Source of the DNA: a virus
IMG/VR virus record: IMGVR_UViG_3300041964_000083
Location: 32,001-96,000 of that record
Length of the DNA: 64,000 bases
Reading direction: 5' to 3' (one strand)
Made by a program: the position numbers and the translations under genes. Below, piece by piece: positions 12,225 through 52,139 of this stretch. Every line of letters begins with the position of its first letter. Position 1 is the stretch's first letter. The notes below the pieces were generated by a model that was not told the origin of the DNA, made no database searches, and saw only the letters and a list, made by a program, of their open reading frames with translations.

Positions 12225-13399
12225 TTAATCGTTGGTTTCAAGAACAAATACTTGCGTACCTCGACCCAGATAATGCCAAGGCACTGGCACGATTAGATAG
12301 CAAAAGCCTTGAAGAGGAGTTTCAAACGGTTGTTCAACTCCTTGTTGATGCTCCTGATGACATCCGAATAGATGATGGGGTTGAGCCAACTGAAACATTG
12401 GTTGAGCAGATAAGCGATCGCGTAACATCCACGGTTATTAATCTGTTTGCGCCAGTTCTCGCCAAAATTGAATCCAAGTTATCTAGATCTGACAACGAAA
12501 CGTTGTCAACTGAAGAACTATTACCTGCAATTACCCGATCAGATGCTAACGTTCCTATTAAACGTGTAGTCAAACATCAAGGATTTGAGATTGGCATTAC
12601 GCACGAGAAGGATGCCATACGTTTCCCTTACTCGTTACCCCTATCGGCTGGGTATGGGCATATTCGACGCTCATACGGCGCAGCCGAGGACAAGAAGGCT
12701 ATCGATGTGTACTGGGGTGGGGATGAATCGGCTACAGATGTATATAGAGTGCGCCAACTCAACCCTGATACAGGGTTTGTAGCAGAACACGACTACTTCA
12801 TGGGGTTTGGTGGAGAAGATGCTCCTAAAGCGATTAGGGAGCTATATCTTCGACATTTAGGACAAAAGCGGTTTGGTGGGTTAGAGAAAGTAGATTTATC
12901 TCAGATTACCCAATATCAAGATAAACCATCAGAAGTGATTCCAGAAGGACATCATTGGGTAAAAAACGATAACGTCGTGGGTGGTGGTTACATCCGACGA
13001 AATTGGCGAGAACAAAAAAAAACTGACAACGATGCGTTGTTAACCGATTGGGATAATCTTCGCTACGATTCTCCAAATCAAGATGATTGGGATGATTCAG
13101 ACTACATAATTGACCACACAATGCAGCAATCGGGCAAAGTGTTCAATCGTTGGCTATCTAAGATTCAAGACTGGGTGGGCGAACAAGGAAGTTTAGAGAA
13201 TGCACGCGATCGCATTCATGAACTTTACCAACACCTTGACGGAAAACAACTCGCCCAAGTTTTAGAGCAAGGAATGACATTAGCAGATTTGAGCGGACGT
13301 TTAGCTGTGGTAACCGAAAGTGCCGAAGACGAAGAAGAAGCCAACACTGGCGCAGAAGAAGAAAGTCAAGACCGTGATGCATCGATGGAAAGAGGGTAA
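12221..13399 (+). CDS. Head-region protein with InPase-like domain and Mu gp29-like C-terminal helices
   Basis: YGHIRRSYG..D..IDVY..VYRVRQ..G..EH..MGF; SLENARDRIHELYQHLD..LAQVLEQGMTLADLSGR. Confidence 0.6.
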   Translation: MINRWFQEQILAYLDPDNAKALARLDSKSLEEEFQTVVQLLVDAPDDIRIDDGVEPTETLVEQISDRVTSTVINLFAPVLAKIESKLSRSDNETLSTEELLPAITRSDANVPIKRVVKHQGFEIGITHEKDAIRFPYSLPLSAGYGHIRRSYGAAEDKKAIDVYWGGDESATDVYRVRQLNPDTGFVAEHDYFMGFGGEDAPKAIRELYLRHLGQKRFGGLEKVDLSQITQYQDKPSEVIPEGHHWVKNDNVVGGGYIRRNWREQKKTDNDALLTDWDNLRYDSPNQDDWDDSDYIIDHTMQQSGKVFNRWLSKIQDWVGEQGSLENARDRIHELYQHLDGKQLAQVLEQGMTLADLSGRLAVVTESAEDEEEANTGAEEESQDRDASMERG

Positions 13400-15062
13400 G
13401 CTTCATGTCGGCAAGTCTGACAAAATCGTGACTTCACAAAAACAGGCGGTCGTGATCGCGTTAAATCAATCGGGGTTATCCAATCGCAAAAAAAAGGCTC
13501 ATAGAAAAGATGCTGATAATGCTATTAATATCAGTCTTGCGCTCAAGCGAATTATTGGTTCGGTATATCGCGATGGTGTAGACGCAGTTCTTTCTTATGA
13601 TACGGATGCGACAGGTGGGATATCAGGGTTATTCCGTGATGGTCGTGAAGTATTTGATTACAGTATTGCCCCAACCGGACAAATCATGTATGTTGAAGTT
13701 GCTGATGCGAGACGGGATGCTTACCTAGAAGGGTTTTATCTGGCAGGGCGAGTACCTGATTGCAGCATTAGTAATACGTATACAAAATCAGTTTTAGAGA
13801 CAGAGCTAACACGAATAGATACTAAAAAATCACGCAAATGTAGTAGTGGTAAGTCTTGTGGCGGTAGTTGTATCGCTAAAGGTTTTAGGTGTGTTCAACA
13901 ACTTGGTCAAGGCGAACAACTTGCAGTTAAACGAATATCTCAAACTATAAAAGCCCAAAAAAGCAAAAAACAATCTCCGTTAGATACATTGAAACGTCAT
14001 GCACCAATTCTTGCTGGGATTGCAGGCGCAGGGTTGTTAGGTGCTGCGGCAGTAGGAGTCGCAATGGCAAACCAAGGCAAGCCATCTCCTACAACTACGC
14101 CTGTTAAACCTAAAGAGTATTCACCTACAACTCCTGCACAAAATCCGACATCACAACCCAAGCCACAAGCACCAGCAACAAAAAAACAATCCGGTGTAGC
14201 TGACCCGTGGGATGGACCAGAACCCGATCCTTGGGAAGGGCAAGTCACGCCAAGACCAGATACACCTCAACCTAAAACAACTCCCAAAATTACACCAGGC
14301 GCTACACCACAATTAGTACCATCACCACAACCAAAACCCCAAAACGAGGAATTTCTTCGGGAATCCACAGCTAGTGAGGCTGAAGCTGCTAAAAACACGT
14401 TACTTAATAAAAATACCGGATATAAACTTAATGAAGCTCTGGATATCCAAGGATTTGATAGCGATACAGCAAGCAAGCTAAACCATACTGTTAATCAAAT
14501 TCATAAAACAGTAAATATTCCTAATTTGTCCAAAATCCCTGTTCAGCCGTCTACGGATGGTAAAGACGACGGTAATTATTATTCTGCAACTTGTACTGAC
14601 GGTAAAACAGGTGCGTTTTTAGGACGAGTACCATTAAAGATTGAACTAGATCCAAACGGTAATCGCAAAGAATCAGCGCTTGTTCACGAAGTTGGACATT
14701 TTATTCACCATTCTGCAATTGGCGATCCTAAAGAAGGGTATAAGGGCAAAATAAAGCCTGAAATGCAAGAGTTATTTAATGCTGTAAACAAGACAAATGC
14801 TGTAAAAAAACTCGATAAGTTAGTACGTACTGCTCGAAACCAAGATATTCGTGAGCGGGCAAATTATCTCAACCAACCAGAAGAATTGTTTGCTCGTGCT
14901 TTTACTCAATACATTGCTAAAAAATCTGGTTCTAAGATATTACAAGTGCAAGTCAAGATGGGGCAAAAAGGCAAAGCCGTTGAATACTGGGATGATCGCG
15001 AATTTAGTCGTACTGTAGAACCTGCAATGGATAAATTTGCTAAAGATATGGGATGGAGATAA
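13320..15062 (+). CDS. Cys4-module protein with zincin metallopeptidase payload
   Basis: DUF6496-like N-terminus, shared domain A, Cys4 motif at 13839, TM, Pro-rich linker, HEVGH and EELFARAF. Confidence 0.75.
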   Translation: MPKTKKKPTLAQKKKVKTVMHRWKEGKLHVGKSDKIVTSQKQAVVIALNQSGLSNRKKKAHRKDADNAINISLALKRIIGSVYRDGVDAVLSYDTDATGGISGLFRDGREVFDYSIAPTGQIMYVEVADARRDAYLEGFYLAGRVPDCSISNTYTKSVLETELTRIDTKKSRKCSSGKSCGGSCIAKGFRCVQQLGQGEQLAVKRISQTIKAQKSKKQSPLDTLKRHAPILAGIAGAGLLGAAAVGVAMANQGKPSPTTTPVKPKEYSPTTPAQNPTSQPKPQAPATKKQSGVADPWDGPEPDPWEGQVTPRPDTPQPKTTPKITPGATPQLVPSPQPKPQNEEFLRESTASEAEAAKNTLLNKNTGYKLNEALDIQGFDSDTASKLNHTVNQIHKTVNIPNLSKIPVQPSTDGKDDGNYYSATCTDGKTGAFLGRVPLKIELDPNGNRKESALVHEVGHFIHHSAIGDPKEGYKGKIKPEMQELFNAVNKTNAVKKLDKLVRTARNQDIRERANYLNQPEELFARAFTQYIAKKSGSKILQVQVKMGQKGKAVEYWDDREFSRTVEPAMDKFAKDMGWR

Positions 15063-15307: not shown

Positions 15308-15312
15308 ATATT

Positions 15313-16203
15313 ATGACAAGTTCAGCTTACTATCAGAGTTTTGTTGAAACAACTAATAGGGTGAGACGCGATCGCATTAAAGAACGTACTGGTCGTGTGC
15401 GTTTTACAAAAGCAAAGTGCAAAAAAGGTAAGCCTTGTGGCGATATCTGCATACCTCAAAAAGCTAAATGTAATGAAGGAAATGTTCGCCCACCTAAATC
15501 ACAAGCAAATAGCATAGCCGCAAATGCTATTAGGGGTGCGGTGGCGGTAGCTGGTTTGGCTTTAGGGGCTAAAATGATTCAAGATATACAAAAAGAAGGC
15601 GAAGAAATAAAACAAGCTAAAGAAAAAGTAGCTGCTGCTGGCAAGTACAACGAAAATTTAAATAATTGGAATAAAAAATATGCAGGTAAACAATATACCG
15701 AGTTCACAACAGAAGAATGGGAACAAGCCCGTGATGAGTTTCAAAAGAATCGAGAAGAATTTAAGCGCAAAGCTGGCTTTGACCCAGATCCAGGATTTGA
15801 TGACCGATGGAAACAATCTGTAGGTTCAGGAAAACACAAACCAGATCCCGTCAAAAACGAACAAGGTAAAGCTTATTATGACGTGTTAGGTGTGCCTAAA
15901 AATGCGTCACCTCAACAAATCAAAGCGGCTTACCGCAAGCTTGCAGCACAGCTTCATCCGGATAATCGTGAAACAGGCAACCCAGATAAGTTCAGAGAAG
16001 CGACTGAAGCTTATGAAAAAGCTCAAGCACACAAAGGTTCTGCAAGAGGCAAAGGTAATCGCAAGGATAGCGTTTGGGACGACATTGAATCTGCTTATAA
16101 TGAGGCAATAGCACAACATCCAGCAATGCCCAGTAGCTACTGGTACAACTTTTCAACATACGACCCATACAACGCTTGGCGTAAGCCACTTGATTTGCTA
16201 TGA
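15313..16203 (+). CDS. Cys4-module protein with J-domain payload
   Basis: Cys4 at 15418, TM, YYDVLGV...AYRKLA..LHPD...EAYE. Confidence 0.8.
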
Positions 16204-16550
16204 ATAGTGCCGCTTATTACACCAGTTTTATTCAGACAACTGCTAGGGTAAGACGTGATCGTGCCTTACGTGCTAAACCCAAATGTAAACCCGGAAATAA
16301 ACCTTGTGGGCAACGCTGCATCCCACAAGAAGACATATGTCGTCAAAATAGCGCGGGTATGCGAGGAGCTATTCCTGCTGCACTAGCAGCTACGGCTGTC
16401 CTAGCAACAGCTGGAACTTTGTATGCTAAAAACAAGCAACGCCAAAAAAGTCAAACTGAAGATAAAGAACTTGACGAAGGATGGAACCGTCTAGGACATG
16501 AAAGTACTGAAATTTTGAGAAGAGTGCAAGGAAAAAAGAAAAGAAGCTAG
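16200..16550 (+). CDS. Minimal Cys4-module protein
   Basis: N-terminus paralogous to 15313; Cys4 at 16284; TM; short tail. Confidence 0.75.
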
Positions 16551-16568: not shown

Positions 16569-17318
16569 GTGCCAAAGCGACCAGAATATTTAAACCAACC
16601 ATTTCAGGAAGCAATTGATTACTTTAAAGACAAAGTACCTTTTCCAACGCAACGTGGGCAGAAAGTGCCTGAAGGTTTCCACGACCACGCTTTCACTATC
16701 ACAGGACTTACCAAAGGCAGTTTACTAGAAGATGCCAAGTGGCTTATTGAACGGGCAATGGAAGACGGTACAGGACTAGACGACTTCACCCGTCAATTTA
16801 ATCGCTTAATTGGGCGCAAGGGATGGCAACCTGGTGATCGCCGCATTCAAACTATTTTTGACACTAATATTCGTCGCAGTTATAGTGCAGGACGGCGTGA
16901 GCAAATGCTTGACCCCGACATAGCTGATCGTCGTCCGGGTTGGATGTGGATTCATAGGACGCCAGGGAAAGAAGAAGGTGGAACACCCAGACTACACCAC
17001 CAAGCGTTGCATCGCAAAGTATTTAGGAATACTGAGACATTTTGGGATAAAGCCTTTGCTCCCTGCGGATTTGGCTGTCGCTGTACTGTTATGACGTTAA
17101 GCGAGAAACAAATGGAACGCATGGGTGTTACGTATGAAACTCCACCTAATCCTAATACCATTGCAGAACCTGGGTTTAGGAGTGCCGCAGGTTCATCGCC
17201 TAAAGAATCGCGACAACAAATCCTAAAAGACGGATTAACGGGTCTTTCTCCTAGCATTAGAGAAGTGGTGGAAAAAGACCTTAGCGCCAAAGGAGTTTTG
17301 GACGATGGTAACGATTAG
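16569..17318 (+). CDS. Phage Mu F-like minor head protein (short form)
   Basis: PFQEAIDYF, AFTITG, RIQTIFDTNIRRSYSAGR, R.HH, FW....PCGFGCRC. Confidence 0.9.
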   Translation: MPKRPEYLNQPFQEAIDYFKDKVPFPTQRGQKVPEGFHDHAFTITGLTKGSLLEDAKWLIERAMEDGTGLDDFTRQFNRLIGRKGWQPGDRRIQTIFDTNIRRSYSAGRREQMLDPDIADRRPGWMWIHRTPGKEEGGTPRLHHQALHRKVFRNTETFWDKAFAPCGFGCRCTVMTLSEKQMERMGVTYETPPNPNTIAEPGFRSAAGSSPKESRQQILKDGLTGLSPSIREVVEKDLSAKGVLDDGND

Positions 17319-18409: not shown

Positions 18410-19969
18410 TTGGTGGCTACACGCTACGACTCAGGCAAACTTCGTAAAGCTCATAAAACTGCCGAAGGCGCATTGTTTTCGGAAGCTATTTATGCGCGAG
18501 ATGGCGTTTTAGAGTATCGCCTTCCCAACGGTGGGACAAGGCGAGAACTTCGCTTACCAGAAACCAACTACGACGAGGAAACGCTGACTAGTTACGGCTC
18601 AAAACCTATAACGGTCGAGCATCCACCTGTTTTAGTGACAGCGGATAATGCAAAAACTTATCAAGTTGGAGCATCAGATGCTGAACCAATGTATGAACGT
18701 CGCTACGAAAAGGGTTTTGTTGGCGGCATTGTTCGTATTTGGCATAGCGATGGCGTGAATGCTGTTGAGTGCAATGGGAAGAAAGAAGTATCCATTGGTT
18801 ACACCTGTGACATTGAACCCGTTGGTGGCATCTACTACCCAAAAACAGGCACTTATGTTGTTACCGATGCTGCTCCAGATAAGGGTGGTGAACGATTTGA
18901 CGCCATTCAGCGCAACGTTCGCGTAAACCATATTGCACTTACTTCTAAAGGTCGTGCTGGTCCAGAAGTCTGCTTGCGAATTGATAGCGAAGACGATGAT
19001 GTTGCCATCCTTGCCAAACCGTTTGAATTTCGCAAAGACGAATATGTAATTCCTGATTCTCCTTTACCTACTACTAACTCACCCACAAAACGCATGGCTG
19101 TCATCCGTATCGACAACATGGATTTTTCTGATGTGCCGGAAACTGTTGCGGTACTGATGAACCAAAAACTCAACGCTCTTGTAGAGCTTCAATCTCGCAA
19201 AGACGCTTTAGAGATTCAATTTCAAGAGCGCGAAGAACAACTCGATGAATTGCGAGAACAAGTAGACGAAGTTGCCGACGAGCGCGATCGCGAACGTGGT
19301 AGGGCTGACGCTTTAGAAATTCAACTCGCTGAAGCTGAAAGTAGGCAAGATGCTGCGATGCCATACAAAGGCAAGAAAAAAGGCAAAGCTCCCATTGTTG
19401 AGGTTGACGAAGACGAAGATTTTGACCCAGATGATATCGACGAGCTGGGTGACGATGACGAAGCTGACGATGAGGACGATGACGAAGATATGGAACCTAC
19501 GCCAATACCAAAGAAAAAAGGGGGACGGAAGGATTCTGATTTTGTTGATGTTGACCCTCATCAGCTGTTTGTTGCTTACGTTGATGCCAACAAAATTGTC
19601 CCTGGTTTGATTTCTGAAGACAAACTTGATTCGTTTGCCACACCTACCGATGTTCGTCGGCTGGCTATAGAAACGCTTAATCCCGATATTGACTTAACAA
19701 ATCGGAGTGATGCCTATGTTGATGGGGTTTATGACTTTATCAAATCTCAAAAGCTTCAAACTACCGAACAGTACCCGGAGCAGCTAGAACGTAACGACAG
19801 TATTAACACTACTTCCTATATCGGTTCTCATACACCACCTAGCGAAATTCAAACTGCGATCGCGCAAGCTCGCTCAAATAGCACTCCTACTTCCCCGCTG
19901 CAAGGTGCAGCAGAAAAGCAACGCGACCTCTACATGAATTCTTGGAACAAACCCCTCGACTTGGTTTAA
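18410..19969 (+). CDS. DUF2213-family prohead protease/scaffold protein
   Basis: ARDGVLEY, PITVEHP, EVSIGY, QRNVRVNHIALTSKGRAG, followed by an acidic coiled-coil scaffold region. Confidence 0.88.
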   Translation: MVATRYDSGKLRKAHKTAEGALFSEAIYARDGVLEYRLPNGGTRRELRLPETNYDEETLTSYGSKPITVEHPPVLVTADNAKTYQVGASDAEPMYERRYEKGFVGGIVRIWHSDGVNAVECNGKKEVSIGYTCDIEPVGGIYYPKTGTYVVTDAAPDKGGERFDAIQRNVRVNHIALTSKGRAGPEVCLRIDSEDDDVAILAKPFEFRKDEYVIPDSPLPTTNSPTKRMAVIRIDNMDFSDVPETVAVLMNQKLNALVELQSRKDALEIQFQEREEQLDELREQVDEVADERDRERGRADALEIQLAEAESRQDAAMPYKGKKKGKAPIVEVDEDEDFDPDDIDELGDDDEADDEDDDEDMEPTPIPKKKGGRKDSDFVDVDPHQLFVAYVDANKIVPGLISEDKLDSFATPTDVRRLAIETLNPDIDLTNRSDAYVDGVYDFIKSQKLQTTEQYPEQLERNDSINTTSYIGSHTPPSEIQTAIAQARSNSTPTSPLQGAAEKQRDLYMNSWNKPLDLV

Positions 19970-20889: not shown

Positions 20890-21825
20890 ATGGCAATCAA
20901 ATCCTATCAAGCTGAACTTAGAACCGACTCTCCAGGCGTCATGGCATTTGCTCGTGACCTTGAGTACAAAGAAGCTAGGGTAATCGAGCAAGTTTATCCG
21001 GAGAAAAAAGCCGCCAACGGCTTGATGATTCAAATTGAAGAGGTCGAGATGCCGTGGGCGCTCTCCACCAGCTTCCGCATGACAGATGGAGTTGGTAGCT
21101 TCGAGCTAGCCGACGACTTCACCACCAACCTCCCATTCGTGGATATGGTGGCTACCGAATTCAAGAACGATGTTAAATCTTATCGTTCTGGCTACTACTA
21201 CTCCGAAAAAGAAGTAGCAGCTTTTAATCACTTAGGCTTACCTATTGATGAACAAAAGATTGCGCTAGTTCGTAAGGCTTATGTTCAAACACTCAATAGG
21301 CTAATACTGTTTGGCGATCGCAAGACGGGAATGCCGGGATTTGTTAACCATCCTGCGTTCTTGCGTTCAATCTCTCCCTATAAACTCGACGGTTCTGTAG
21401 GAAATGCCAACCAGCTTATCTCCGCACTTACATTTGGGATGAGTGCTGTATCTGACTCTACAATCGACGCGCTCGAATGTGACACCATCTGGCTTCCACG
21501 TAAACAGTTTACGTTTATGAACTCCCAAGCCCGGATGGATGGTGCTCTGGAAAAAACTGTACTCAAGTTCTTTAAGGAGAACAACACTAACCCAAACGTT
21601 CAGATCGGCTGGATGCGGGAATTAGAAGGTTGTGGACCTAACGGGGAAGACGTAGCACTCTTCTACTCTAGAAACCCCATGTATGTAAAGGCGCGTATTA
21701 CTGACCCCTTCCGCTTCCGTCAGCTGATGGTCTACCCGTTCATGCTGTATCGCCCTGTGGCGTTTGATTGGAACGGCATCCAAGTTTACAACCCCTACTC
21801 CGTTCATGTCATGATCGGAGTTTAA
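20890..21825 (+). CDS. Major capsid protein (DUF2184 family, HK97 fold)
   Basis: LE......YP, YSEKEVAA, NRLILFGD..GMPGFVNHP, ELEGCG, G.QVYNP; canonical position. Confidence 0.88.
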   Translation: MAIKSYQAELRTDSPGVMAFARDLEYKEARVIEQVYPEKKAANGLMIQIEEVEMPWALSTSFRMTDGVGSFELADDFTTNLPFVDMVATEFKNDVKSYRSGYYYSEKEVAAFNHLGLPIDEQKIALVRKAYVQTLNRLILFGDRKTGMPGFVNHPAFLRSISPYKLDGSVGNANQLISALTFGMSAVSDSTIDALECDTIWLPRKQFTFMNSQARMDGALEKTVLKFFKENNTNPNVQIGWMRELEGCGPNGEDVALFYSRNPMYVKARITDPFRFRQLMVYPFMLYRPVAFDWNGIQVYNPYSVHVMIGV

Positions 21826-23667: not shown

Positions 23668-23872
23668 CGACTCACACCTTAAGAAATCGCTATTTAGTGA
23701 CATCTGCACCAAATGCAAGCACTTAGACTTAGAATCTGCCAAAACAGATAAGAAAATCTGTACAGCATTCCCCGATGGTATCCCATTTGAAATATGGTCG
23801 GGTAAGAATGACCACAAGAAACCCTATCCAGGTGATCGCGGTATTCAATTTAAGCTCAAAACCATTAAATGA
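23657..23872 (+). CDS. Small Cys/His protein (CxxC...CxAFPDGIP...H..PYPGD.GIQF)
   Basis: Coupled to both neighbours; potential metal ligands. Confidence 0.7.
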
Positions 23873-43700: not shown

Positions 43701-46190
43701 TTTAACCAATCAACCAAAATTGAACAAGATTCGGTACAAAAGCTAGAAAAAGCTCTTGCTGCGGGTGAAGGAAAGATTAAACAAGTAGCATCAGCAGCAA
43801 CCGCAGACGAGAAAGAGCGATTGGCAAAATCTACAGAAGCATTTGCTAAACATCAATCTGATAAAGAGTCTCTTGAGTTAGATCAAATCAACACATCTCA
43901 AGCGTCACAGAAGAAGCAATACGCAGAAACACAAAAGCAGCTAAGTTTAGCTCAAGAACAATACAGTAAGCTCACTAAAGAAGAAAAGGAACGTGCTAGC
44001 CCGCAACTTGAAAAAATTAATGCATTGCGATCGCAGGCAGCAGAACAGCGCACTACGATCGCTAAAGCTGAAACTGAACGGGAAGAAAAACTCAGAAGCA
44101 CAGCAACCGAAAAATCTAGCATCGCTCAACAAAAAGCGTTAGATGTTGCTAAGGCTGCGGAAAATGATCGCCTAAAGAACATTCAAGAGCTTGTAAACAA
44201 AGGTGTTCTAAGTCAAGCAGATGCGGATGAACAACGCGCCAACCTTACAGTTGGTAGCTTAAAAAACCAGCTAAGTGCCGAGCAAGCACACTTAGCCAAT
44301 ATGGTTGACATTGCTAAAAAATACCCCAAAACAGGGCTAGAAGGGCAAAAGCAAGAGGAAGAGATTCGCAAAGCTCGAATCAAGACTCAAGAAATCACAA
44401 CACAAATACTGGAACAAGAAAAAGCAGCGTATGAGGCACACATCGCATCGATTACCGCCGCACTAGACCGCGAAAGCAACTTGAGTCAAGCTAAAGATGA
44501 GCAACTTGTTCGAGATGGATTGGAGATTCAGGAAGGTGCTGATCGCAAGAAGGCTGATTCTACAGTTAACCGTTTACAGAAGTTACTAGCACTCGAAACC
44601 AAAGATAAAGATAAACGCGCTCAATTAGAACTACAGCTACAAGAAGCACTGTCGGCACAAGACGATGCGCGGGTAAAAGAAAAATTAAAACATATTGATA
44701 ATGTCAATACCCAAGAACTGGCAAGAGATGAAGAACTATATCGTACAGGCAAACTTAAGAAAGAACAGTACGAAATAGAAAAAGCTCAATCAACATTAAG
44801 TCGTTTAGAACAAGAGCTTGCTTTAGAACAAGACGATGTAAGTAAGCGAATTGCTCTAGAACTTCAGGTACAGCAAGCGCGTACCAGTTTGCAAGAGGCA
44901 CAGCTAAGTCAACGCAAAGCTCAAATTGAAAGTGAGAACCAAGAATACCAAAACCAATTAGAGCGACAGCTCGAACCTCTCAAAGCACAGCAGTCTGTAT
45001 TTGACCTCCTCAATAAAGCATTAGAGAACCGCAATAAACTTCTCAGTGCTAGCCAAGACTTAATGCGGGCAGGTGCTAATTACTTGACTGGGCAGCTAGA
45101 AGCTATCTCATCTGTAGAGACATCAGAATATCGCCGTAAGCAGCTAGCTCAAGGTATTGCGGCAATCAAATTGGATGCGGCTAAAAAAGAAGCTGAAATG
45201 ACCGCAGCTTCCCTTGAAGCAGAGCAACAGATGCAACGATTTGCCCTGATGAGAGAGCAAATTGAAAATAGAGTTGCACTAGCGCGTCAGGTTGGGGAAA
45301 CAGCTAAACTCCAAGGGCAAATTGCAGTAGCCGAAGCTGACCCCCGTACCAGCAAAGCCCAGAAAGATGCGTTGTATATCCAACTTGATGCCGCCAAACA
45401 ACAGCAAGCACAGCTAAAGGGTATTGGTGTTCTATTGGCACAACAAGCACCTGCTCAAGAAAAAGTATTTGCTTTGCAGAAGCGCTCTAAACAGCTAGAA
45501 GCTGAAGGAACGGTTACTCAAGCGCAAGCGGCATTGATTAATACGCTTGGACCCGGCTCTAAAGAGCGTGCCGCTCGTGCTTTCCAAGAGCAACAATCCC
45601 AAAAAGTGTTTGGAACGAGTTATCAAGATGTAAGATCTGGTTCTCGTGCGTTAGCGCGTGAAACAGTTGATCGGGAAATACCGGGCGCAAACTTAGGGAC
45701 AGGGGCTGGAATGTCGGGGTTTGCACCTTATTTAGAGGAAGTGAGTGGTTCTGTTGCAGCTATGGCTCAAGCTAATACAGATTTGGCAAGAACAATGGGA
45801 CCTGCGGCAACAGCAGGAGTTGGCTTAGTCGGTGCTGGTGCTGCATCGTTAAGACTTCCGGATGTAGTTGGAAAGATACCGGGGTTAGATGAAATTAATC
45901 GCGGTTCACAAGATGCGATCGCGCAATCACTTCAGGCTTATCAACAAGAAGGGTTAAAGCTACCCACAGGACTCGCAGGACAACAGTTACAACTACCTAA
46001 AGTTTCAACGGATGGAATGGCGAAAAGTAGTTCCACGTTTGAAAAAGCTGTTTCTCAGTTTGCCAAAGCGGTACAATCGAGTCAGCAAACGAAAAAAACT
46101 AGTAGCGGCAATAATGTAACACTCAACGTTAATCAGTCGCAGTCATCAGATATCGGTAACATCTTAACCCTTGCAAAACAACTAAGCTAA
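34725..46190 (+). CDS. Tape measure protein, 3821 aa
   Basis: VQIVISATDNASG start; Ala/Gly/Ser-rich helical repeats; TMP-like core near 41.2-41.7 kb; coiled-coil C-terminus. Confidence 0.8.
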   Translation: MPATNNAVQIVISATDNASGVISNIQSSLSGLSKLVSQPLQTALLNLNRVTNSVSQDIVDKVGAIGKSFNQVFSNIASPVSFPLSGLTRSLDEIPGLFTSAFTRGSQAATIAIQDIGGVDTRDLNQSLGEVPKLFNSTFTRGAQAANNALKEIGGLDVGELNQSLAGVPQLFNSTFIRGSQAANSALQNIGGIDTGKLTQSLDRVPQLFNSTFIRSTQSAQNALKSIGSVNTSGLSQSLGEVPALFASAFNRSGQVANNALQNIGKLNTGELSQSLAEVPKLFNSTFTRSSQVAQNALRDIGGIETDGLTRSLNEIPTLFAATFTRSAQSAQKVIQSIGGVETNQITQSLAEVPGLFTSAFTRGTNAATNALQSMGELNTEGLTQSLDEVPQLFNSAFTRGSQAATTALGSINGIDTDKLDQSLSEVPSLFARVFNQSNQIAQNNLESIGGVDTREITQSLAEVPTLFTSAFSRGEQVAQNAFKGIGNINTGELKQSLNEIPSLFNSTFTRSAQLAQNKLKDFDGINTGKLTQSLSEVPQLFSSTFNRSSQVAQNALQNIGDVNTDGLAQSLGEVPRLFTSFFTRGTQTAQNALQNIGDIDASELTRSLDKIPSLFTTTFTRSSQVAKNALQNIGEIDTGKLIQSIDEVPSLLVSTFTRGSQAVNNALQNIDGIDTDKLTQSLSEVPALFTSTFNQGSRAATNALQAIGGIDTGGLTESLGEVPQLFNSAFTRGKQSANNAIQGIGELSTDKLNQSLEEIPRLFGTTFTRSRQVADNAFQNIDGINTGKLDQSLNQILKLFTSTFNQSSQAATNALQKIGGVDTDKLTQSINEVPQLLGSSFTRGSQAATTALQNIGKLDTGRLTQSLGEIPALFNSAFTRGGQVAQNALASVDGIDTSRLTQSLSGVPQLFNSAFDRSSQAATTALQNIGELNTSGLTQSLGEIPTLFNSAFTRGSQSAQNALQDIGGVVDTSELTQSLSEVPQIFNSTFARSSQVAQNAIQSIGEVDTGALSQSLGEIPSLFASTFNRSRQTASDALKDIGGVNTDELNQSLGKIPQLFNSAFSRGSQVATDSLQTVGELNTDELTRSLAEIPDLFNSTFTRSRQSAQTALQSIGGIDTGELSQSVNSIPPLFTSAFDKGSQAAENALQDIGGVDARKLTQSLEDVPGLFASTFNRSAQAAQNALQSIGELNTSGLTQSLSEVPVLFNLAFTRSSQAASNALQGIDKLDTKRLSQSLDEIPQLFTSTFTRGNQVAQDALQNIDGVNTDNLKQSLNEVPSLFTSVFNRSRSVATNTLRSIGGVDTSELTRSLSGIPQFFTSAFTRGVQIAQNTFQSIGELDTGELNQSLSEIPQLFNSAFTRGNQSATNALQNIGNVDTSGLTQSLTEVPQILNSAFTRGSQSANSALQDIGGVNTDELTQSLNEVPQLFSSTFNRGTQAATNALQNIGELNTSGLTQALGEVLTLFNSAFTRGSQAANSALQSIDDIDTGNLNRSLAEIPQLFTSTFNRGTQAARNALQSIDGVDTNQLGQSLSEVPQLFTSAFTRGGQAAQDTIASVFSDIPADVSTLFSDISNRAKTSVDSLFQGIAPDTGKLNAAIKPIGNAIPDSLKPGIASARQTFASFFQSIPNQVDDWLAALPTSLGNAVNSAVDSIALNFDGLTRSLTDGLSDAFGGAALGIGDIGAGLNPFAGLASGISGAATGLDKVGTSISSAITSGFTKANTQVDGFFTGITNRVPNLLSGLPQAILAQLDTSVKALTPDLSGIQASFGRISDAFAIGFEPGIAAAQEEVETFFREIAQNAPEWMRDLPQSITNTFDSAFNSINLGQASSNFLEFGENVFSVFDSIGDAINDTGNLIRNLDTIFQTTLGTSLGDLVKKQIEDLNDDMGKVFDDGQILIPLSTTLGELAKTGTPAGASFFSGFFGAFGEEFASFFPTFTSLISKGISSVTGLIPSLFGSISSLIPSTLKTAFSSVTATAGSAFTSISALIPTTFTSAFSSAAGSISTTISSAFSSVTTTAASIFTSISARIPSWLAGAPAAIIDTFDRAWFGVADSFETTFSSIDFAGNVGANLASIGTGADDYARVFDLLKNSVGGVTDAIGTVTQQAFFFTEGFSALQGLVQNGPYQLLVQQNVELQQQLLETQASLVATNKIMQSGQQIVDPTAAIQALNAPIRSAIAQLRQDSLELVGVTSKDLVGVFQVVAQQASGIGINIQEAQKLTVSFSAALGTMGVPLHQASQEITSILTSQIDQNSVVAKNLGLNNDLIQRLSTQGKLYDFLQQKLGAFREGNKLQSQTIEGITSNIQELVDTVGLAAGEQLIKPIVDNLNQVYSYLQNNFKTISDYATSLVGKLSTAGQYVAEAVGLVLNSIAGVLGATTNSLFDFLIIGAKGFKDAVATMLPIFQPFIDSLAILITVAGNLSEAIGELPFTQLFFQFKILTTGAGLLKESFSAFAGVTPILGEAMFLMGGRANGLVGTFTNLTQALGNSSAAMGLLAGKHMNDIPILAGLVQNKVTGMLGPFSAFGPVISGLVPQLSTGAIALVGLTKQFPVLGSTITSAAGMIPGLLSSTGALAGSKGFGALGASLTAASGNLSTFLSGTDLATFASEKLTEVTKQVRAEFIKTITTTGLVIAGLAALAIIVVEVTKRMQDGGAPIKQLAKDTQNTANLIRDTWDKTRATTSKKLFEDQQVPATDWIDTMILKTRELEKGTLQITDAMSAVQAVGAILAKGFDFVAKAVQSVVVLVYEGVQGIVAGAQLAFNVLKNPLDTKAIEASMQKLVSVGDNASDGLQETWSRSFGDIQTKGEKSMTDIGDALKSGGLQRGVKDMVDQVNSLIASGLQPGKLFEKELEPVSTAIENLKNKTGSVKDVRDAIATLPDSIPADRKREFLDLVNKEFPNGVAESGESTEAFQERLKNLSKQLGVTGSDASNIRLEEIREKLEGNIQSINQQIDALKRSGQGYSGNARELRSLEGQLKTAKDAFDKFNQSTKIEQDSVQKLEKALAAGEGKIKQVASAATADEKERLAKSTEAFAKHQSDKESLELDQINTSQASQKKQYAETQKQLSLAQEQYSKLTKEEKERASPQLEKINALRSQAAEQRTTIAKAETEREEKLRSTATEKSSIAQQKALDVAKAAENDRLKNIQELVNKGVLSQADADEQRANLTVGSLKNQLSAEQAHLANMVDIAKKYPKTGLEGQKQEEEIRKARIKTQEITTQILEQEKAAYEAHIASITAALDRESNLSQAKDEQLVRDGLEIQEGADRKKADSTVNRLQKLLALETKDKDKRAQLELQLQEALSAQDDARVKEKLKHIDNVNTQELARDEELYRTGKLKKEQYEIEKAQSTLSRLEQELALEQDDVSKRIALELQVQQARTSLQEAQLSQRKAQIESENQEYQNQLERQLEPLKAQQSVFDLLNKALENRNKLLSASQDLMRAGANYLTGQLEAISSVETSEYRRKQLAQGIAAIKLDAAKKEAEMTAASLEAEQQMQRFALMREQIENRVALARQVGETAKLQGQIAVAEADPRTSKAQKDALYIQLDAAKQQQAQLKGIGVLLAQQAPAQEKVFALQKRSKQLEAEGTVTQAQAALINTLGPGSKERAARAFQEQQSQKVFGTSYQDVRSGSRALARETVDREIPGANLGTGAGMSGFAPYLEEVSGSVAAMAQANTDLARTMGPAATAGVGLVGAGAASLRLPDVVGKIPGLDEINRGSQDAIAQSLQAYQQEGLKLPTGLAGQQLQLPKVSTDGMAKSSSTFEKAVSQFAKAVQSSQQTKKTSSGNNVTLNVNQSQSSDIGNILTLAKQLS
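34975..39395 (+). repeat. About 40 tandem 37-aa (111-nt) coding repeats
   Basis: Consensus GGIDTGKLTQSLSEVPQLFNSTFTRGSQAATNALQNI; copy number estimated as span divided by 111. Confidence 0.9.
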
Positions 46191-49037: not shown

Positions 49038-49051
49038 GAGCGCGATCATAC

Positions 49052-49725: not shown

Positions 49726-49988
49726 TGCGATCGCGCAACATCATTCACAAAAACCAAAAGAATACCGTGTCAGAATTAAATCTCAGCCTACAAGCATCAG
49801 AAAACAGCACACCTGTAACCTTCCGTTATTCCGGAGAAACGTCTGAATCTGGTATAGGAGAAATTCAAATTGGAGAAACCAAAGCAGAAATAAGTATTGT
49901 TGTGCTGTGCAAAATAGCCGAACTGTTAAAAACATTAGACACAGTTGATTATCTAAAAAAGAGCAGCGTGTCAGACAAACGTAAATGA
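49725..49988 (+). CDS. Hypothetical protein
   Basis: TAGTG overlap. Confidence 0.45.
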   Translation: MRSRNIIHKNQKNTVSELNLSLQASENSTPVTFRYSGETSESGIGEIQIGETKAEISIVVLCKIAELLKTLDTVDYLKKSSVSDKRK

Positions 49989-50004
49989 CAACTAATAGTT
50001 GTCA
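49986..50004. promoter_or_regulatory. 19-bp palindrome, copy 3
   Basis: TGACAACTAATAGTTGTCA. Confidence 0.75.
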
Positions 50005-50007
50005 TTT

Positions 50008-50044
50008 CAACACCGCGTCATGTACTGATGCGGTGTTGTTTTTT
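50008..50044 (+). terminator. Intrinsic terminator
   Basis: CAACACCGCGTCA-loop-TGATGCGGTGTTG plus T tract. Confidence 0.7.
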
Positions 50045-50084
50045 CGTATCAGGGTAGAATTGACATGAGAACTAGCGATCGCGT

Positions 50085-52139
50085 GTGGCAACTCAACAAG
50101 ATTTAGATAAAACCTACCTCACTATCCTTCGTCGCATAATCGAGGAGCAGTTAGGCGATCGCGTAAATCGTTTTCTTTCGCTCAAATTCACTCCACAAGG
50201 CGTAACTGGTACATTCCTAAGTGAAGCTCGACGATTTAACTTCTCTGTTAATCCAACTGAAATCAAATATGGACTCGCTACAGAAAAGTTTGATAGTTAC
50301 GCCGTTGGTTCAGCCTCGAACCGTCTAGGGCTATCCCACTTACCACTAGGAACCGATGCGTACTCCTTAGCGTTCATGCAGGTATATGAACGGTTAGACG
50401 CGGGCAAAAAGAAGTGTGTGGTTGGTATTGGTTGTGGTGGAACCTGTATTAACAACAAGAAAATGTGTCGGTTGTTGGTTAAATCCCCTGAAACTAAAAA
50501 ACTGATACGAAAGCTAGGGGAGGTGCAGGATTATGTGCAGCGTAAACCTGGAAATGCCATACTTGCGCTACTTGGAGTCGCCGCAGTTGGAGCCGCAGCA
50601 TTTACCGCAGCCGCTTACTTTGCAGGAAAACCTAACTACAATGCAAAACCGTTAGAACCTCGATATCAGGGCAAGAAACCTACGGGTAAATTACCCAACA
50701 CAACGCCAAGAGCAGCGCGATCGTTTAAAACCCCTGCGTCAGAACCCGCACCACCCCCAGAACCACCTACTGTAGTTGTTGCGCCAGCCCAACCAACCGT
50801 AAACAAGCCACCAGTATCTGTAAAACGTACTCGTAAACCATCGACAAGCGTTCCAGAAGGTCAACTAGAGATTGATATGAATACTCGGTACGTAGAGACA
50901 GTGCGGGAGGTTAAGACCGTACCTGAAGATGTATCTGGGATAAAAGAATTGCCTATTGATCAAGTTAAAGTAGCACCGCGTTTGTTTCAGTACAAAATGC
51001 CAGAAGGGGTAGGCAAGCAAGCACAAAAAGATTTTAAAGAGAAAGGTGTAACAGGCGCATTAGCTGATGCTAAGGTATGGAACCCCAATTTGGCAGGAAG
51101 CTTGATGGTATGGCGCGTACCTAAAGGTGGGGTAAAAGATGGTGAAGGGAATCAGTTTGAAGAAGGTGAATCATTGTTGGTGCATGGACACCACCGATTA
51201 GCATTGGCTCAACGCGCGGAAGGTGTATTTGAGGGAGATCCGAGTACGGGTAAGGTTGTTCCCGGTAAGCCTGATAAGGTGCGCGTCGAGTTTATCAACG
51301 CACCTACTCCCAAAGAAGCACGGGTAGTGGGAGCGCTCCAGAATATTGCCCAAGGTGCGGGAACATCCAAGGATGCAGCGAATGTATTCCGAGAGCTTAA
51401 CGTCAATGACTCCAATCAACTAAAACAGTGGGGCATTTCACTTAAAGGGAAGGTTGCTGATGAAGGATTGGGGTTAGCTGGGCTTAACGATCATCTGTGG
51501 CGCAAGGTATCAGACCCTAGTTATCAGAAACAATCAGGGGAACGGAAACTTACGACAACGAGAGCTAGTGAAATTGGTAAGATTCGCAATCCTGACTTAC
51601 AGAATGAAGTTTGGGATGTGGTGCGTACCAGCGATGATGTAGACGATGATTTTGTGAAGTCGTTGAGCGATCGCGTACAGCGTCGATATGAGCGGGGTGA
51701 AATCGCATTCCAATCACCAGAAGCGGGTAACCAAATGTCGCTATTCGACCAAGCCAAGATTGCAGTGGCTGGTGAGAAAGAGCGGGCTGAAGCTGATTCA
51801 CATATCGAGCGACAGATTACGGATAATGATAAATTCTGGTCGGGTAAGCGGATGGGCGCGATTGCAGACCGATTAAAGTCAGAAAATGTTGGAGACTTGG
51901 ATTTAGACCGCGCTGGAGAAGTATCAGAACAGACCGCTAAAGTGCGTTGGCTCTACCGCAAGGCTAAATCCCTTCCCAATGACCCCAATGCTCAAGCAGT
52001 GGAATCTGCACTCAATAAGTTTGGAAACGAGATTCAGGCTGCGCGATCACAAGGGGCGGATAAAGCTGAAATCAAGAAGATTAAGGAGGCGCAATGGAAC
52101 GAAATGCAAAAACTTCTTACCGCGTTCTTAAACGGTTAA
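50085..52139 (+). CDS. Cys4-module protein with ParB/Srx-like payload
   Basis: Domain A, RLDA, Cys4 at 50415, TM, Pro-rich linker, FQYK...LMVWR...LVHGHHRL. Confidence 0.75.
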   Translation: MATQQDLDKTYLTILRRIIEEQLGDRVNRFLSLKFTPQGVTGTFLSEARRFNFSVNPTEIKYGLATEKFDSYAVGSASNRLGLSHLPLGTDAYSLAFMQVYERLDAGKKKCVVGIGCGGTCINNKKMCRLLVKSPETKKLIRKLGEVQDYVQRKPGNAILALLGVAAVGAAAFTAAAYFAGKPNYNAKPLEPRYQGKKPTGKLPNTTPRAARSFKTPASEPAPPPEPPTVVVAPAQPTVNKPPVSVKRTRKPSTSVPEGQLEIDMNTRYVETVREVKTVPEDVSGIKELPIDQVKVAPRLFQYKMPEGVGKQAQKDFKEKGVTGALADAKVWNPNLAGSLMVWRVPKGGVKDGEGNQFEEGESLLVHGHHRLALAQRAEGVFEGDPSTGKVVPGKPDKVRVEFINAPTPKEARVVGALQNIAQGAGTSKDAANVFRELNVNDSNQLKQWGISLKGKVADEGLGLAGLNDHLWRKVSDPSYQKQSGERKLTTTRASEIGKIRNPDLQNEVWDVVRTSDDVDDDFVKSLSDRVQRRYERGEIAFQSPEAGNQMSLFDQAKIAVAGEKERAEADSHIERQITDNDKFWSGKRMGAIADRLKSENVGDLDLDRAGEVSEQTAKVRWLYRKAKSLPNDPNAQAVESALNKFGNEIQAARSQGADKAEIKKIKEAQWNEMQKLLTAFLNG

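What the first reader, a model, noticed from the sequence alone, without database searches (positions are those of the whole stretch)
13320..52139. Candidate new system: polymorphic Cys4-tagged virion cargo family (14 modules in 10 genes)
Seen: the motif C-x5/6-C-x3-C-[IV]-x5-C (e.g. [18 protein letters not shown]) starts at 13839, 15418, 16284, 24178, 25608, 26841, 27792, 28725, 29353, 30111, 31080, 31920, 33414 and 50415. Each copy is in a basic context, lies a short way after an [R/K]-x-D site and, in 13 of 14 cases, precedes an Ala/Gly-rich hydrophobic helix. A variable payload follows: alpha/beta-hydrolase x4, JAB/MPN-like x2, J-domain x2, zincin, ParB-like, LEA-like, or little/unknown. 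Nine of the ten genes sit among the head genes. Established: a conserved N-terminal delivery module with a swappable C-terminus defines polymorphic effector systems, and zincin, ParB and InPase domains recur in phage polyvalent and MuF-fused proteins. Inference: these proteins are packaged into the head and delivered to the host, with the Cys4+TM unit as an ejection or membrane-targeting tag. The MuF gene here has no toxin extension, so the payloads use their own tag.
Basis: partly seen in the sequence, partly recalled or inferred. Interest (0 to 1): 0.95.

Follow-up and report, generated by a model that had tools for sequence, protein, structure and literature searches.

The report
Cysteine-knot tagged phage virion cargo proteins
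A large cyanophage carries ten genes built from one repeated, undescribed unit (a probable protease site, a small four-cysteine knot and a membrane-like helix) joined to swappable enzymes; relatives of these proteins are known parts of purified phage particles, so the unit most likely marks enzymes that travel in the virion and enter the host envelope at infection.

Summary
All 14 motifs lie at the stated coordinates, in frame on the + strand, and a 15th lies elsewhere in the same 154-kb phage genome. Shuffled genomes give 0-1.

The motif is the core of a real, unannotated module: R-x-D, about 10 residues, then C-x5/6-C-G-x2-C-[IV]-x5-C, usually followed by an Ala/Gly-rich hydrophobic segment. 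Many copies are preceded by a ~70-aa N domain and followed by an enzyme. Pfam and NCBIfam have no model for it.

- **Spread:** an exhaustive profile search finds 758 protein clusters, many of them polyproteins with up to 7 detected modules.
- **Context:** the genes sit beside DUF2213/DUF2184 head genes, MuF, portal or the tape-measure gene.
- **Virion presence:** in the nearest isolate, Aphanizomenon phage CL131, all four module-bearing proteins were detected by LC-MS/MS in CsCl-purified virions.
- **Tag behaviour:** an unrelated 118-kb phage has at least 13 genes that begin directly with the knot, most followed by a hydrophobic helix.
- **Cysteines:** they vary as two pairs, which argues against an obligatory four-cysteine Zn site. 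Bare cores also occur in secreted bacterial proteins.
- **R-x-D:** it is about 5-fold enriched in virion proteins and aligns at capsid and scaffold termini, so it is a likely prohead-protease site.

Still inferred: head versus tail location, cleavage, and delivery to the host. The scan's earlier notes cover only this genome, not other DNA.

The parts
13320..15062 (+). Cargo gene 1 (580 aa, pI 9.7). Order: DUF6496-like N-terminus, N domain, RID, Cys knot at 13839, Ala/Gly hydrophobic segment, Pro-rich linker, zincin-like C-terminus.
   Evidence: LPD1 scores 25-26 bits (cut-off 27); phrog_4529 'minor head protein and DNA pilot' 4e-16.
15313..16203 (+). Cargo gene 2 (296 aa). Order: AYY helix, RRD, Cys knot at 15418, hydrophobic segment, J-domain, RKDS, then a C-terminal tail [10 protein letters not shown] that copies the end of the DUF2213 scaffold/protease.
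16200..16550 (+). Minimal cargo gene 3 (116 aa). Order: AYY helix, RRD, Cys knot at 16284, hydrophobic segment, short basic tail.
23869..25311 (+). Cargo gene 4 (480 aa). Order: N domain, RLD, Cys knot at 24178, hydrophobic segment, alpha/beta-hydrolase (GYSAGG).
25311..27569 (+). Two-unit cargo gene 5 (752 aa). Unit 1: N domain, RLD, knot at 25608, hydrophobic segment, hydrolase. Unit 2: KLDS, knot at 26841, hydrophobic segment, JAB/MPN-like domain.
27651..28415 (+). Cargo gene 6 (254 aa). Order: RID, Cys knot at 27792, no hydrophobic segment, JAB/MPN-like domain.
28416..29018 (+). Cargo gene 7 (200 aa). N domain, RVD, Cys knot at 28725 and hydrophobic segment only. This protein was folded.
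29044..30075 (+). Cargo gene 8 (343 aa). Order: N domain, RVD, Cys knot at 29353, hydrophobic segment, Lys-rich helical tail. Relative of CL131 ORF045.
30075..34724 (+). Four-unit polyprotein (1549 aa) with knots at 30111, 31080, 31920 and 33414. Payloads: hydrolase, acidic domain, Rho_N-like segment plus hydrolase, coiled coil plus J-domain. Counterpart of CL131 ORF048.
50085..52139 (+). Cargo gene 10 (684 aa). Order: N domain, RLD, Cys knot at 50415, hydrophobic segment, Pro-rich linker, then a C-terminal domain shared with portal-fused large proteins. The ParB-like label is unconfirmed.
18410..19969 (+). DUF2213 (Pa193_gp24) head maturation protease/scaffold. Its conserved R-x-D-[SA] sites and C-terminal tail are shared with the cargo genes.
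20890..21825 (+). Major capsid protein (PF09950/DUF2184) with a conserved R-x-D at residues 11-13.
34725..46190 (+). 3821-aa tape-measure-like protein with about 40 tandem 38-aa repeats, hydrophobic segments and no cysteine. It lies directly downstream of the cargo block.
16569..17318 (+). MuF-like minor head protein (249 aa) with no C-terminal extension.
12206..13399 (+). InPase-domain protein (a domain associated with polyvalent proteins). It has three R-x-D-S/A sites and no Cys knot.

Best explanation
The ten genes encode virion-packaged cargo or ejection proteins of a CL131/PaV-LD-like cyanosiphophage. They are built from one repeated unit.

The unit has five parts in a fixed order:
1. An optional ~70-aa alpha/beta N domain.
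2. A flexible linker carrying R-x-D-[S/A].
3. A basic ~18-residue mini-domain of three short strands, held by two cysteine pairs (C1-C3 and C2-C4).
4. Usually an Ala/Gly-rich membrane-active segment.
5. A swappable enzyme: lipase-like hydrolase, JAB, J-domain or zincin in this window, and LRAT/NlpC, NUDIX, phosphatase, kinases or exonuclease in relatives.

Most likely mechanism, with steps marked:
- **Packaging (inferred).** The proteins enter the procapsid. The signal may be the N domain or, for the J-domain protein, a copy of the scaffold's C-terminal tail.
- **Cleavage (inferred).** The DUF2213 prohead protease cuts at R-x-D. This separates polyproteins into units whose new N-terminus lies about 10 residues before the knot.
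- **Presence in the virion (shown for CL131 orthologues).** The units stay in the mature particle.
- **Delivery (inferred).** At infection they leave with the tape-measure protein and the DNA. The cationic knot and the hydrophobic segment then anchor each enzyme in the host envelope. Lipid- and wall-directed enzymes would help breach it, and the others would act on host takeover.
For: - **The motif is real.** It occurs 15 times in the genome against 0-1 in shuffles.
- **Orthologues are virion proteins.** The nearest isolate, CL131 (capsid protein 50% identical), has 7 modules in gp044, gp045, gp047 and gp048, in the same slot before the tape-measure gene. All four proteins were detected in CsCl-purified virions: ORF048 with 175 PSMs and 55% coverage, ORF045 with 123 PSMs (PMC6293099 Table S5).
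- **The family is wide.** The exhaustive profile search finds 758 clusters at E <= 1e-3, with up to 7 detected modules per protein.
- **The unit order is fixed.** The N domain lies directly upstream of a module in 60 of 60 cases. A module lies within 150 aa upstream of 68 of 107 hydrolase domains and 18 of 22 JAB domains.
- **Payloads are diverse**.
- **Synteny with head genes.** Modules lie next to DUF2213, the capsid gene, DUF4054 and a giant tape-measure-like gene in L011, L016 and L017. They lie next to MuF in L018 and are fused to a Mu-type portal in P0102. The PF09950 capsid gene is present in 20 of 39 IMG/VR contigs with the motif against 1 of 24 control contigs (Fisher p = 8e-5). In four complete genomes the modules lie within about 2-8 kb of the capsid gene on the same strand.
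- **The tag is portable.** A 118.6-kb phage without that capsid type has 18 sites, and at least 13 genes begin with the knot, 8 of them followed by a hydrophobic segment.
- **R-x-D behaves like a processing site.** R is present in 92% and D in 96% of modules. It lies in a low-confidence linker of the model. It is absent from the cellular and portal-fused copies inspected. It aligns at the capsid N-terminus, the DUF2213 N-terminus and the protease/scaffold boundary in four phages. In the virion block there are 24 R-x-D-[SA] sites against 4.4 +/- 2.1 after shuffling, and 2.6 per 1000 aa against 0.5 in the rest of the genome.
- **Scaffold tail.** Six DUF2213 proteins and, in this genome, only the J-domain cargo end with the same tail.
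- **Cysteine pairs.** Of 351 modules, 310 have all four cysteines and 36 lack exactly C1 and C3. C2 and C4 are kept in all, and no clear single loss was seen.
- **Extracytoplasmic relatives.** Bare cores occur behind signal peptides in bacterial proteins.
Against: - No experiment covers this phage itself. Virion presence is transferred from orthologues of modest identity (39% for the one pair measured).
- The CL131 data are whole-protein identifications. They show neither cleavage nor head-versus-tail location.
- The six central genes lie directly upstream of the tape-measure gene, which fits a tail or tape-measure association equally well.
- No cleavage specificity is published for DUF2213 proteins. 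The Pa193 paper treats gp24 only as a putative scaffold (PMC11456595).
- R-x-D could instead be a structural cap of the knot.
- AlphaFold2 gives pLDDT < 50 for the hydrophobic segment, and membrane insertion is judged from hydropathy alone.
- Only about half of all modules in relatives are followed by such a segment (156 of 305), and the PaV-LD modules inspected have none nearby.
- J-domain, JAB, NUDIX and nuclease payloads act in the cytoplasm, while the cellular knots are extracytoplasmic, so the final topology is unresolved.
- The 'SDAY helix' likeness to the scaffold is not significant (E 2.5).
Confidence: 0.6

Rival explanations
1. The proteins are partners of the tape-measure protein. 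They are carried in or at the tail and, together with that protein, form the trans-envelope channel. They are not head-internal cargo, and R-x-D is not a prohead-protease site.
For: Six of the ten genes, and the polyproteins of CL131, L011, L015, L016 and L017, lie directly upstream of a giant tape-measure-like gene. The Ala/Gly-rich hydrophobic segments resemble those of the tape-measure protein itself. Lipase-like and LRAT/NlpC payloads would suit envelope breaching.
Against: - R-x-D-[SA] is shared with the capsid and scaffold proteins. The 3821-aa tape-measure protein has only one strict R-x-D-[SA] site, or three if K is allowed at the first position.
- Modules also occur fused to a portal, next to MuF, and upstream of the capsid gene in 70-kb phages.
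- One cargo protein carries the scaffold's C-terminal tail.
- CL131 ORF045 and ORF048 gave among the highest spectral counts. By inference, that is hard to fit into a tail lumen already filled by the tape-measure protein.
Confidence: 0.2
2. They are resident internal virion proteins that bind and condense the packaged DNA. The basic Cys4 unit acts as a metal-binding nucleic-acid knuckle, and the enzymes are not delivered effectors.
For: All ten proteins are basic (pI 8.6-10.3), and the motif region carries a net charge of +4 to +9. The CL131 orthologues are abundant in virions, with pI 9.1-9.7. A Rho_N-like nucleic-acid-binding segment occurs in one unit.
Against: C1 and C3 are lost together in 10% of modules, which does not fit an obligatory four-ligand metal site. 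The same core is found in secreted bacterial proteins behind signal peptides. Hydrophobic segments and lipase-type payloads have no role in DNA condensation.
Confidence: 0.1
3. The tag is an N-terminal membrane-insertion signal for phage proteins that work in the infected cell's membranes (for example exclusion, lysis or remodelling). Their detection in CL131 particles is incidental carry-over.
For: In the 118.6-kb phage G004 the tagged genes are scattered over 75 kb on both strands, not in one structural operon. The unit looks like a short N-tail followed by a signal-anchor helix.
Against: In CL131 all four module proteins were identified in CsCl-purified particles. ORF045, 047 and 048 had 38-56% coverage and 14-105 peptides, inside a list of only 23 proteins that all lie in the structural region. 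Gene position beside head genes is conserved in many phages. The shared R-x-D sites and scaffold tail point to procapsid entry.
Confidence: 0.07

Closest known systems
Polyvalent proteins of phages and conjugative elements (Iyer, Burroughs, Anand, de Souza, Aravind 2017; PMC5512222)
   Same: Both are large phage proteins that string together unrelated enzymatic domains. Both are encoded beside portal and MuF genes and are predicted to travel with the DNA. Signature domains occur here too: InPase in the neighbouring gene and an LPD1/zincin-like C-terminus.
   Different: That paper's text does not mention a cysteine motif or a transmembrane segment, and it reports a paucity of polyvalent proteins in cyanobacteria. 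Here every payload is preceded by its own R-x-D, Cys-knot and hydrophobic junction module. The domains are spread over ten genes. Most genes lie before the tape-measure gene rather than being fused to portal or MuF.
Phage T4 internal proteins with a capsid targeting sequence removed by the prohead protease gp21 (own knowledge)
   Same: Both have an N-terminal targeting part, a short consensus cleavage site shared with capsid and scaffold proteins, basic proteins kept in the head, and ejection with the DNA.
   Different: In T4 the signal is about 10 residues and the site is L/I-x-E. Here the upstream part is a folded ~70-aa domain and the site would be R-x-D. The retained part begins with a Cys knot and a hydrophobic helix. 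Cleavage here is inferred, not shown.
HK97 maturation protease C-terminal tail as encapsidation signal (Duda, Oh, Hendrix 2013; own knowledge)
   Same: A short C-terminal tail of the protease/scaffold can carry a protein into the procapsid. The J-domain cargo here ends with the same tail as the DUF2213 protein.
   Different: This applies to one of the ten genes only. The function of the DUF2213 tail has not been tested.
Ejection proteins of T7 (gp14/15/16) and P22 (gp7/16/20), and tape-measure proteins acting as ejection proteins (Swanson, Hou, Cingolani 2022, cited in PMC11456595)
   Same: Both are virion-borne proteins with membrane-active segments that leave the particle and insert into the host envelope. 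Some carry wall-degrading enzymes.
   Different: There is no sequence or fold relation. Here the proteins form a modular, polymorphic family with many enzyme types and a cysteine knot.
MuF-fused polymorphic toxins of temperate phages (Jamet et al. 2017; own knowledge)
   Same: Both have a conserved head-associated N-terminal part with variable C-terminal effector domains.
   Different: The conserved part there is the MuF domain itself. Here MuF is a separate 249-aa protein with no extension.
T6SS Tle lipase effectors and eCIS cargo with the DUF4157/eCIS_core domain
   Same: Some payload families are shared: Tle3, DUF676 and Lipase_3-type hydrolases, LRAT, and eCIS_core in G004.
   Different: The delivery machines and the targeting parts are different.

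Membership tests
Polyvalent proteins (Iyer et al. 2017) | One polypeptide of a phage or conjugative element that combines two or more unrelated effector or enzymatic domains | tested here: met
   Gene 25311 combines a hydrolase and a JAB domain. Gene 30075 combines two hydrolases and a J-domain. Relatives carry up to 7 units.
Polyvalent proteins (Iyer et al. 2017) | Presence of the family's signature domains (LPD domains, InPase, zincin MPTase, DdrB-like ParB) | tested here: inconclusive
   InPase scores 59 bits (cut-off 26.8), but in the neighbouring gene without a knot. LPD1 scores 25.4-26.1 bits, just under the cut-off of 27. There is no Pfam ParB hit.
Polyvalent proteins (Iyer et al. 2017) | Fusion to, or neighbourhood with, portal or MuF head genes | tested here: met
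   Three genes lie just upstream of MuF in the window. P0117 lies upstream of MuF, and P0102 is fused to Portal_Mu.
Polyvalent proteins (Iyer et al. 2017) | Transfer into the recipient cell together with the DNA | not testable with these tools
   Only virion presence of the CL131 orthologues is documented.
MuF polymorphic toxins | N-terminal MuF domain fused to the variable C-terminal domain | tested here: not met
   MuF is a separate 249-aa protein whose domain fills it. None of the ten proteins hits Phage_Mu_F.
T4-type internal proteins (capsid targeting sequence) | N-terminal part removed by the prohead protease at a site shared with capsid and scaffold proteins | tested here: inconclusive
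   R-x-D is conserved before every knot and at aligned capsid and scaffold positions. It is about 5-fold enriched in the virion block. No cleavage data exist.
Four-cysteine zinc ribbon or knuckle | Four metal ligands kept in all members | tested here: not met
   36 of 351 modules lack C1 and C3 together (C3 replaced by F/Y/H) while C2 and C4 are kept in all 351. There is no C-x2-C knuckle.
Any curated family for the Cys core (Pfam-A, NCBIfam) | A significant match to a model covering the motif | tested here: not met
   There are no hits over the motif for the window proteins or for the bare-core proteins, even at E <= 10. Only noise such as DUF7107 at 8.5 bits and TRASH at 13 bits appears.
JAB/MPN+ metallopeptidases (payload of genes 25311 and 27651) | Conserved E, H-x-H and S-x-x-D on an MPN fold | tested here: met
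   The residues are invariant in 13 copies. The model has pLDDT 94.4. The best Foldseek hits are JAMM1 5ld9, RadC 2qlc and Rpn11 homologues (E 2e-3, probability 1.00). There is no Pfam hit at E <= 0.01.
Tape-measure proteins | A very long, largely helical, repeat-rich protein encoded in the tail module | tested here: not met
   The ten proteins are enzyme-bearing and cysteine-containing. The neighbouring 3821-aa ORF fits this description instead.

The most novel reading that the evidence does not exclude
The R-x-D, Cys-knot and hydrophobic-helix unit is a portable, previously unrecognised address tag. It works in at least two unrelated phage lineages. In this reading it directs dozens of different enzymes first into the procapsid, where the prohead protease trims them at R-x-D. 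It then directs them, at ejection, into the host envelope, where the knot (derived from a secreted bacterial mini-domain) oxidises or binds the membrane surface and fixes the topology. This would be a phage-borne polymorphic effector delivery system comparable in logic to T6SS or eCIS cargo tagging.
Probability: 0.35. Interest if true: 0.85.

Novelty: new variant of a known kind. Interest (0 to 1): 0.72.

Why it matters
Phage proteins that enter the host with the DNA are the first weapons of infection. Outside a few model phages they are hard to recognise from sequence.

A short module that can be searched for, and that marks such proteins, would let hundreds of 'hypothetical' genes in cyanophage and metagenomic genomes be read as virion cargo. 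This module marks 758 clusters, and homologues have been verified in purified virions.

It would also open up a large catalogue of payload enzymes: lipases, NlpC/LRAT, JAB, J-domains, NUDIX, kinases and nucleases. It would propose a cleavage rule (R-x-D) for the widespread DUF2213 protease/scaffold family. And it would offer a candidate tag for loading foreign proteins into phage particles.

It bears as well on how long-tailed cyanophages cross the thick cyanobacterial envelope.

Tried and rejected
- **The search for related loci with the module alignment** failed because no stretch was conserved enough. A DNA pattern scan replaced it.
- **Fold searches for the tag.** Foldseek and VIA-align searches with the N domain + knot model gave only generic cystatin-like arrangements (best Z 5.8; Foldseek E > 0.1). 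No fold assignment is made.
- **'SDAY helix' scaffold mimicry.** A profile of the cargo helices ranks the scaffold first among non-cargo ORFs, but at E 2.5. This is not significant and is dropped as evidence.
- **PDB sequence searches** with the DUF2213 protein and with the C-terminus of gene 50085 found nothing useful.
- **ParB-like label for gene 50085.** It has no Pfam support, even among four homologues.
- **Portal_Mu in the phage's own genome.** No match, and the controls did not ring either, so this is uninformative.
- **ESM Atlas look-alikes of the JAB payload** gave only weak leads (Prok-JAB 0.83, RadC 0.81). Folding settled the question instead.
- **Major tail protein.** I considered whether the abundant CL131 ORF045-type protein is the missing major tail protein. 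I rejected this because the N domain recurs inside enzyme polyproteins and shows no tube-like fold. Spectral counts are too noisy to settle copy number.
- **Pfam mTERF hit on the 3821-aa protein.** I read it as an artefact of its 38-aa repeats.
- **Chance or low-complexity origin of the motif** is excluded by the shuffles.

Full report
**What the window is.** The window is bases 32001-96000 of a 153,952-bp IMG/VR virus record, 98% complete and 43% G+C.

Around the finding the + strand carries, in order:
- an InPase-domain gene;
- three motif genes;
- MuF;
- a tail-completion (Phage_tail_S) gene;
- a DUF2213 (Pa193_gp24) head protease/scaffold;
- a cement protein;
- a DUF2184-type major capsid protein;
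- DUF4054 and a small gene;
- six motif genes;
- a 3821-aa cysteine-free protein with about forty 38-aa repeats and hydrophobic segments, which is the tape-measure protein;
- several small genes;
- the tenth motif gene.

The nearest isolate is Aphanizomenon phage vB_AphaS-CL131, whose capsid protein is 50% identical. Planktothrix phage PaV-LD is next.

The strict motif occurs 14 times at the stated coordinates, always in frame on the + strand. A 15th copy ends a small acidic ORF at genome position 127872. Twenty shuffles give 0 or 1. Each copy has [RK]-x-D 4-18 residues upstream and a net charge of +4 to +9. A hydrophobic Ala/Gly-rich 19-mer follows within 35 residues in 12 of 14 copies. Seven units also start with a ~70-aa domain, called here the N domain.

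**It is a real, wide and unannotated family.** A profile of the 14 modules was searched against 1.84 billion representative proteins. It finds 758 clusters at E <= 1e-3 and 113 at E <= 1e-10. Many are polyproteins of 1000-3600 aa with 3-7 modules.
- **Conservation.** Over 351 module instances the consensus is R(92%)-x-D(96%), then about 10 residues rich in K, then C-x2-G-x2-C-G-x2-C-[IV]-P-x4-C.
- **No curated model.** No Pfam or NCBIfam model covers it, and all source names are 'hypothetical protein'.
- **Unit order.** The N domain lies directly upstream of a module in 60 of 60 cases, with a median gap of 5.5 aa. Payload domains lie downstream.
- **Payload families in 35 relatives.** DUF676, Lipase_3, PGAP1, Palm_thioest, Tle3 and other alpha/beta-hydrolases are the commonest. 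LRAT/NlpC, DnaJ, protein and lipid kinases, His_Phos_1, NUDIX and Rho_N follow.
- **Payloads in the window.** The two J-domains are certain. The JAB/MPN assignment is well supported. The zincin is borderline. The ParB-like label is unconfirmed.

**Where the genes sit elsewhere.**
- **CL131** has 7 modules in gp044, gp045, gp047 and gp048 (four in gp048), in the same slot before its tape-measure gene.
- **PaV-LD** has 8 modules in seven genes around its head genes.
- **Three metagenomic or genomic contigs,** including a Nostoc assembly, repeat the order DUF2213, capsid, DUF4054, polyprotein, giant protein.
- **Other relatives** lie just upstream of MuF, next to an InPase protein, or are fused to a Mu-type portal.
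- **IMG/VR scan.** A scan for K-P-C-G-x2-C-I-P returned 69 loci, of which 45 have the full motif. The PF09950 capsid gene is present in 20 of 39 motif contigs (8 of 10 near-complete ones) against 1 of 24 chance-match contigs (0 of 4). Fisher p = 8e-5.
- **Complete genomes.** In four complete genomes the modules are on the capsid gene's strand, about 2-8 kb away.

**Virion presence.** Table S5 of the CL131 paper (PMC6293099) lists 23 proteins found by LC-MS/MS in CsCl-purified particles. ORF044 (9 PSMs), ORF045 (123), ORF047 (24) and ORF048 (175 PSMs, 105 peptides, 55% coverage) are all on it. For comparison the capsid protein gave 86 PSMs and the tape-measure protein 110. The paper calls them structural proteins of unknown function and does not describe the module.

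**The tag is portable.** IMG/VR contig 3300040801_004428 is a 118.6-kb phage with terminal repeats and without the PF09950 capsid. It has 18 C-G-x2-C-[IV]-P sites on both strands between 32 and 108 kb, against none for the reversed pattern. At least 13 of its genes begin with M-x(1-6)-K followed directly by the knot. They have no N domain and no R-x-D. Eight then have a hydrophobic helix. Their C-termini differ: RNase_T exonuclease, eCIS_core/DUF4157, DUF695 and unknowns. So the knot plus helix works as an N-terminal unit by itself.

**What the knot is.** AlphaFold2 on the 200-aa gene 28416, with 41 aligned homologues, gives mean pLDDT 78.6.
- The N domain is helix, four strands, helix.
- The R-V-D lies in the lowest-confidence linker of the ordered part.
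- The knot is three short strands at pLDDT 79-90.
- A helix follows it.
- The hydrophobic segment is unmodelled (pLDDT < 50).

Fold searches give nothing specific. Across 351 modules, 310 have four cysteines and 36 lack exactly C1 and C3, with C3 replaced by F, Y or H. C2 and C4 are kept in all, and the five remaining patterns look like alignment truncations. This pairwise pattern fits two disulfides, or two independent pairs, better than one four-ligand metal site.

Bare cores without R-x-D occur once or several times behind Sec signal peptides or a lipobox in small bacterial proteins. One of these also has a PsiF repeat, and one sampled example sits among cellular genes. The core is therefore an extracytoplasmic mini-domain that phages have joined to a processing site and a helix.

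**R-x-D as a maturation site (inferred).** R-x-D-[S/A/D] aligns in four phages at several places:
- the capsid protein's N-terminus;
- residues 5-8 of the DUF2213 protein;
- its protease/scaffold boundary;
- further scaffold positions.

A solved relative's capsid protein has K-Q-D-A at the same place. In the virion block without the tape-measure protein there are 24 R-x-D-[SA] sites against 4.4 +/- 2.1 in shuffles (maximum 10). That is 2.6 per 1000 aa against 0.5 in the rest of the genome. Four of five control motifs show no comparable enrichment; R-x-D followed by other residues is itself about 2-fold enriched. The tape-measure protein has almost none. No cleavage rule is published for this family; the Pa193 study only suggests that gp24 may be cleaved and models the capsid protein from residue 66.

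If the site is cut, each unit would begin about 10 residues before its knot. That matches the G004 genes and the secreted bacterial forms after signal-peptide removal.

**A second packaging clue.** All six DUF2213 proteins examined end with [AS]-[WY]-x-[KQE]-P-[LG]-x-[LI] plus 1-9 residues. In this genome only one other long ORF ends the same way, also one residue before the stop. It is the J-domain cargo gene 15313 ([10 protein letters not shown], against NSWNKPLDLV in the scaffold). Shuffled genomes give 0-1 matches anywhere in any frame. By analogy with protease or scaffold tails that bind coat protein (own knowledge), this points to procapsid entry. The broader 'SDAY helix' likeness is not significant.

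**Verdict.** What is shown:
- a new conserved module;
- its modular use with many enzymes;
- its linkage to head and tape-measure genes;
- the virion presence of orthologues.

What remains inferred is cleavage at R-x-D, head rather than tail location, the redox or metal state of the knot, membrane insertion, and delivery to the host.

It is best filed as a new variant of virion-borne polyvalent or ejection proteins, not as a wholly new kind of system. Earlier notes of this scan cover only this same genome. A sequence look-up found no look-alike in other genomes.

Noticed in passing
outside the window: genome G000:C1:127581-127970 (+), which would be window coordinates 95581-95970: A 15th Cys-knot copy ends a ~129-aa ORF in an acidic context with extra cysteines. 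It has no R-x-D, no basic flank and no hydrophobic helix. Its role is unknown.
   Followed up: partly
window 11736-12224 (+) and 12206-13399 (+): The ORF before the InPase gene ends with a degenerate Cys-rich stretch (C-G-G-T-C-A-C-N-S-C) and an RSDAYLAGF helix six residues before its stop. The overlapping next ORF soon has A-R-L-D-S. This could be two genes, or one unit split by a frameshift.
   Followed up: no
window 34725-46190 (+): The 3821-aa tape-measure-like protein starts with about forty tandem 38-aa repeats and has no cysteine. By the usual 0.15 nm per residue rule (own knowledge) it would predict a tail over 500 nm long. The Pfam mTERF hit (E 4e-32) looks like a repeat artefact.
   Followed up: partly
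loci L028, L050, L068, L071, L081, L086, L090 (IMG/VR contig 3300040801_004428, handle G004): A 118.6-kb phage with terminal repeats has 18 knot sites on both strands. At least 13 of its genes start directly with the knot. It lacks the PF09950 capsid type.
   Followed up: partly
P0102 (locus L019:102-3284): A Mu-type portal protein has a C-terminal extension carrying two bare Cys knots. The extension has no R-x-D and no hydrophobic helix.
   Followed up: partly
L010 (PaV-LD NC_016564, record positions 38836-59228): PaV-LD has eight knots with a longer first loop (C-x6/7-C). Each is followed by a conserved acidic/helical stretch (K-S-D-P-x-D...D-K-L-[KR]) instead of a hydrophobic helix.
   Followed up: no
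P0132, P0169, P0174, P0178, P0188 (cellular proteins, e.g. Aliidongia dinghuensis): These small secreted bacterial proteins consist of a signal peptide and one or two bare knots. One also has a PsiF repeat (PF07769). Their function is unknown.
   Followed up: partly
P0037 (527 aa, JGI contig of 1.8 kb): This protein has about ten tandem knot-like repeats, an N-terminal signal-like segment and a C-terminal membrane anchor. Its source and role are unknown.
   Followed up: no
L015:3874-5432: An IS200/IS605 pair (Y1_Tnp and OrfB/Cas12f-like TnpB) is inserted in the structural region of a related phage contig.
   Followed up: no
window 13320-13450 (+): Cargo gene 1 starts with a DUF6496-like basic segment (24.1 bits, at the cut-off of 24). 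Its GTG start overlaps the end of the InPase gene by 80 nt, so the true start is uncertain.
   Followed up: no
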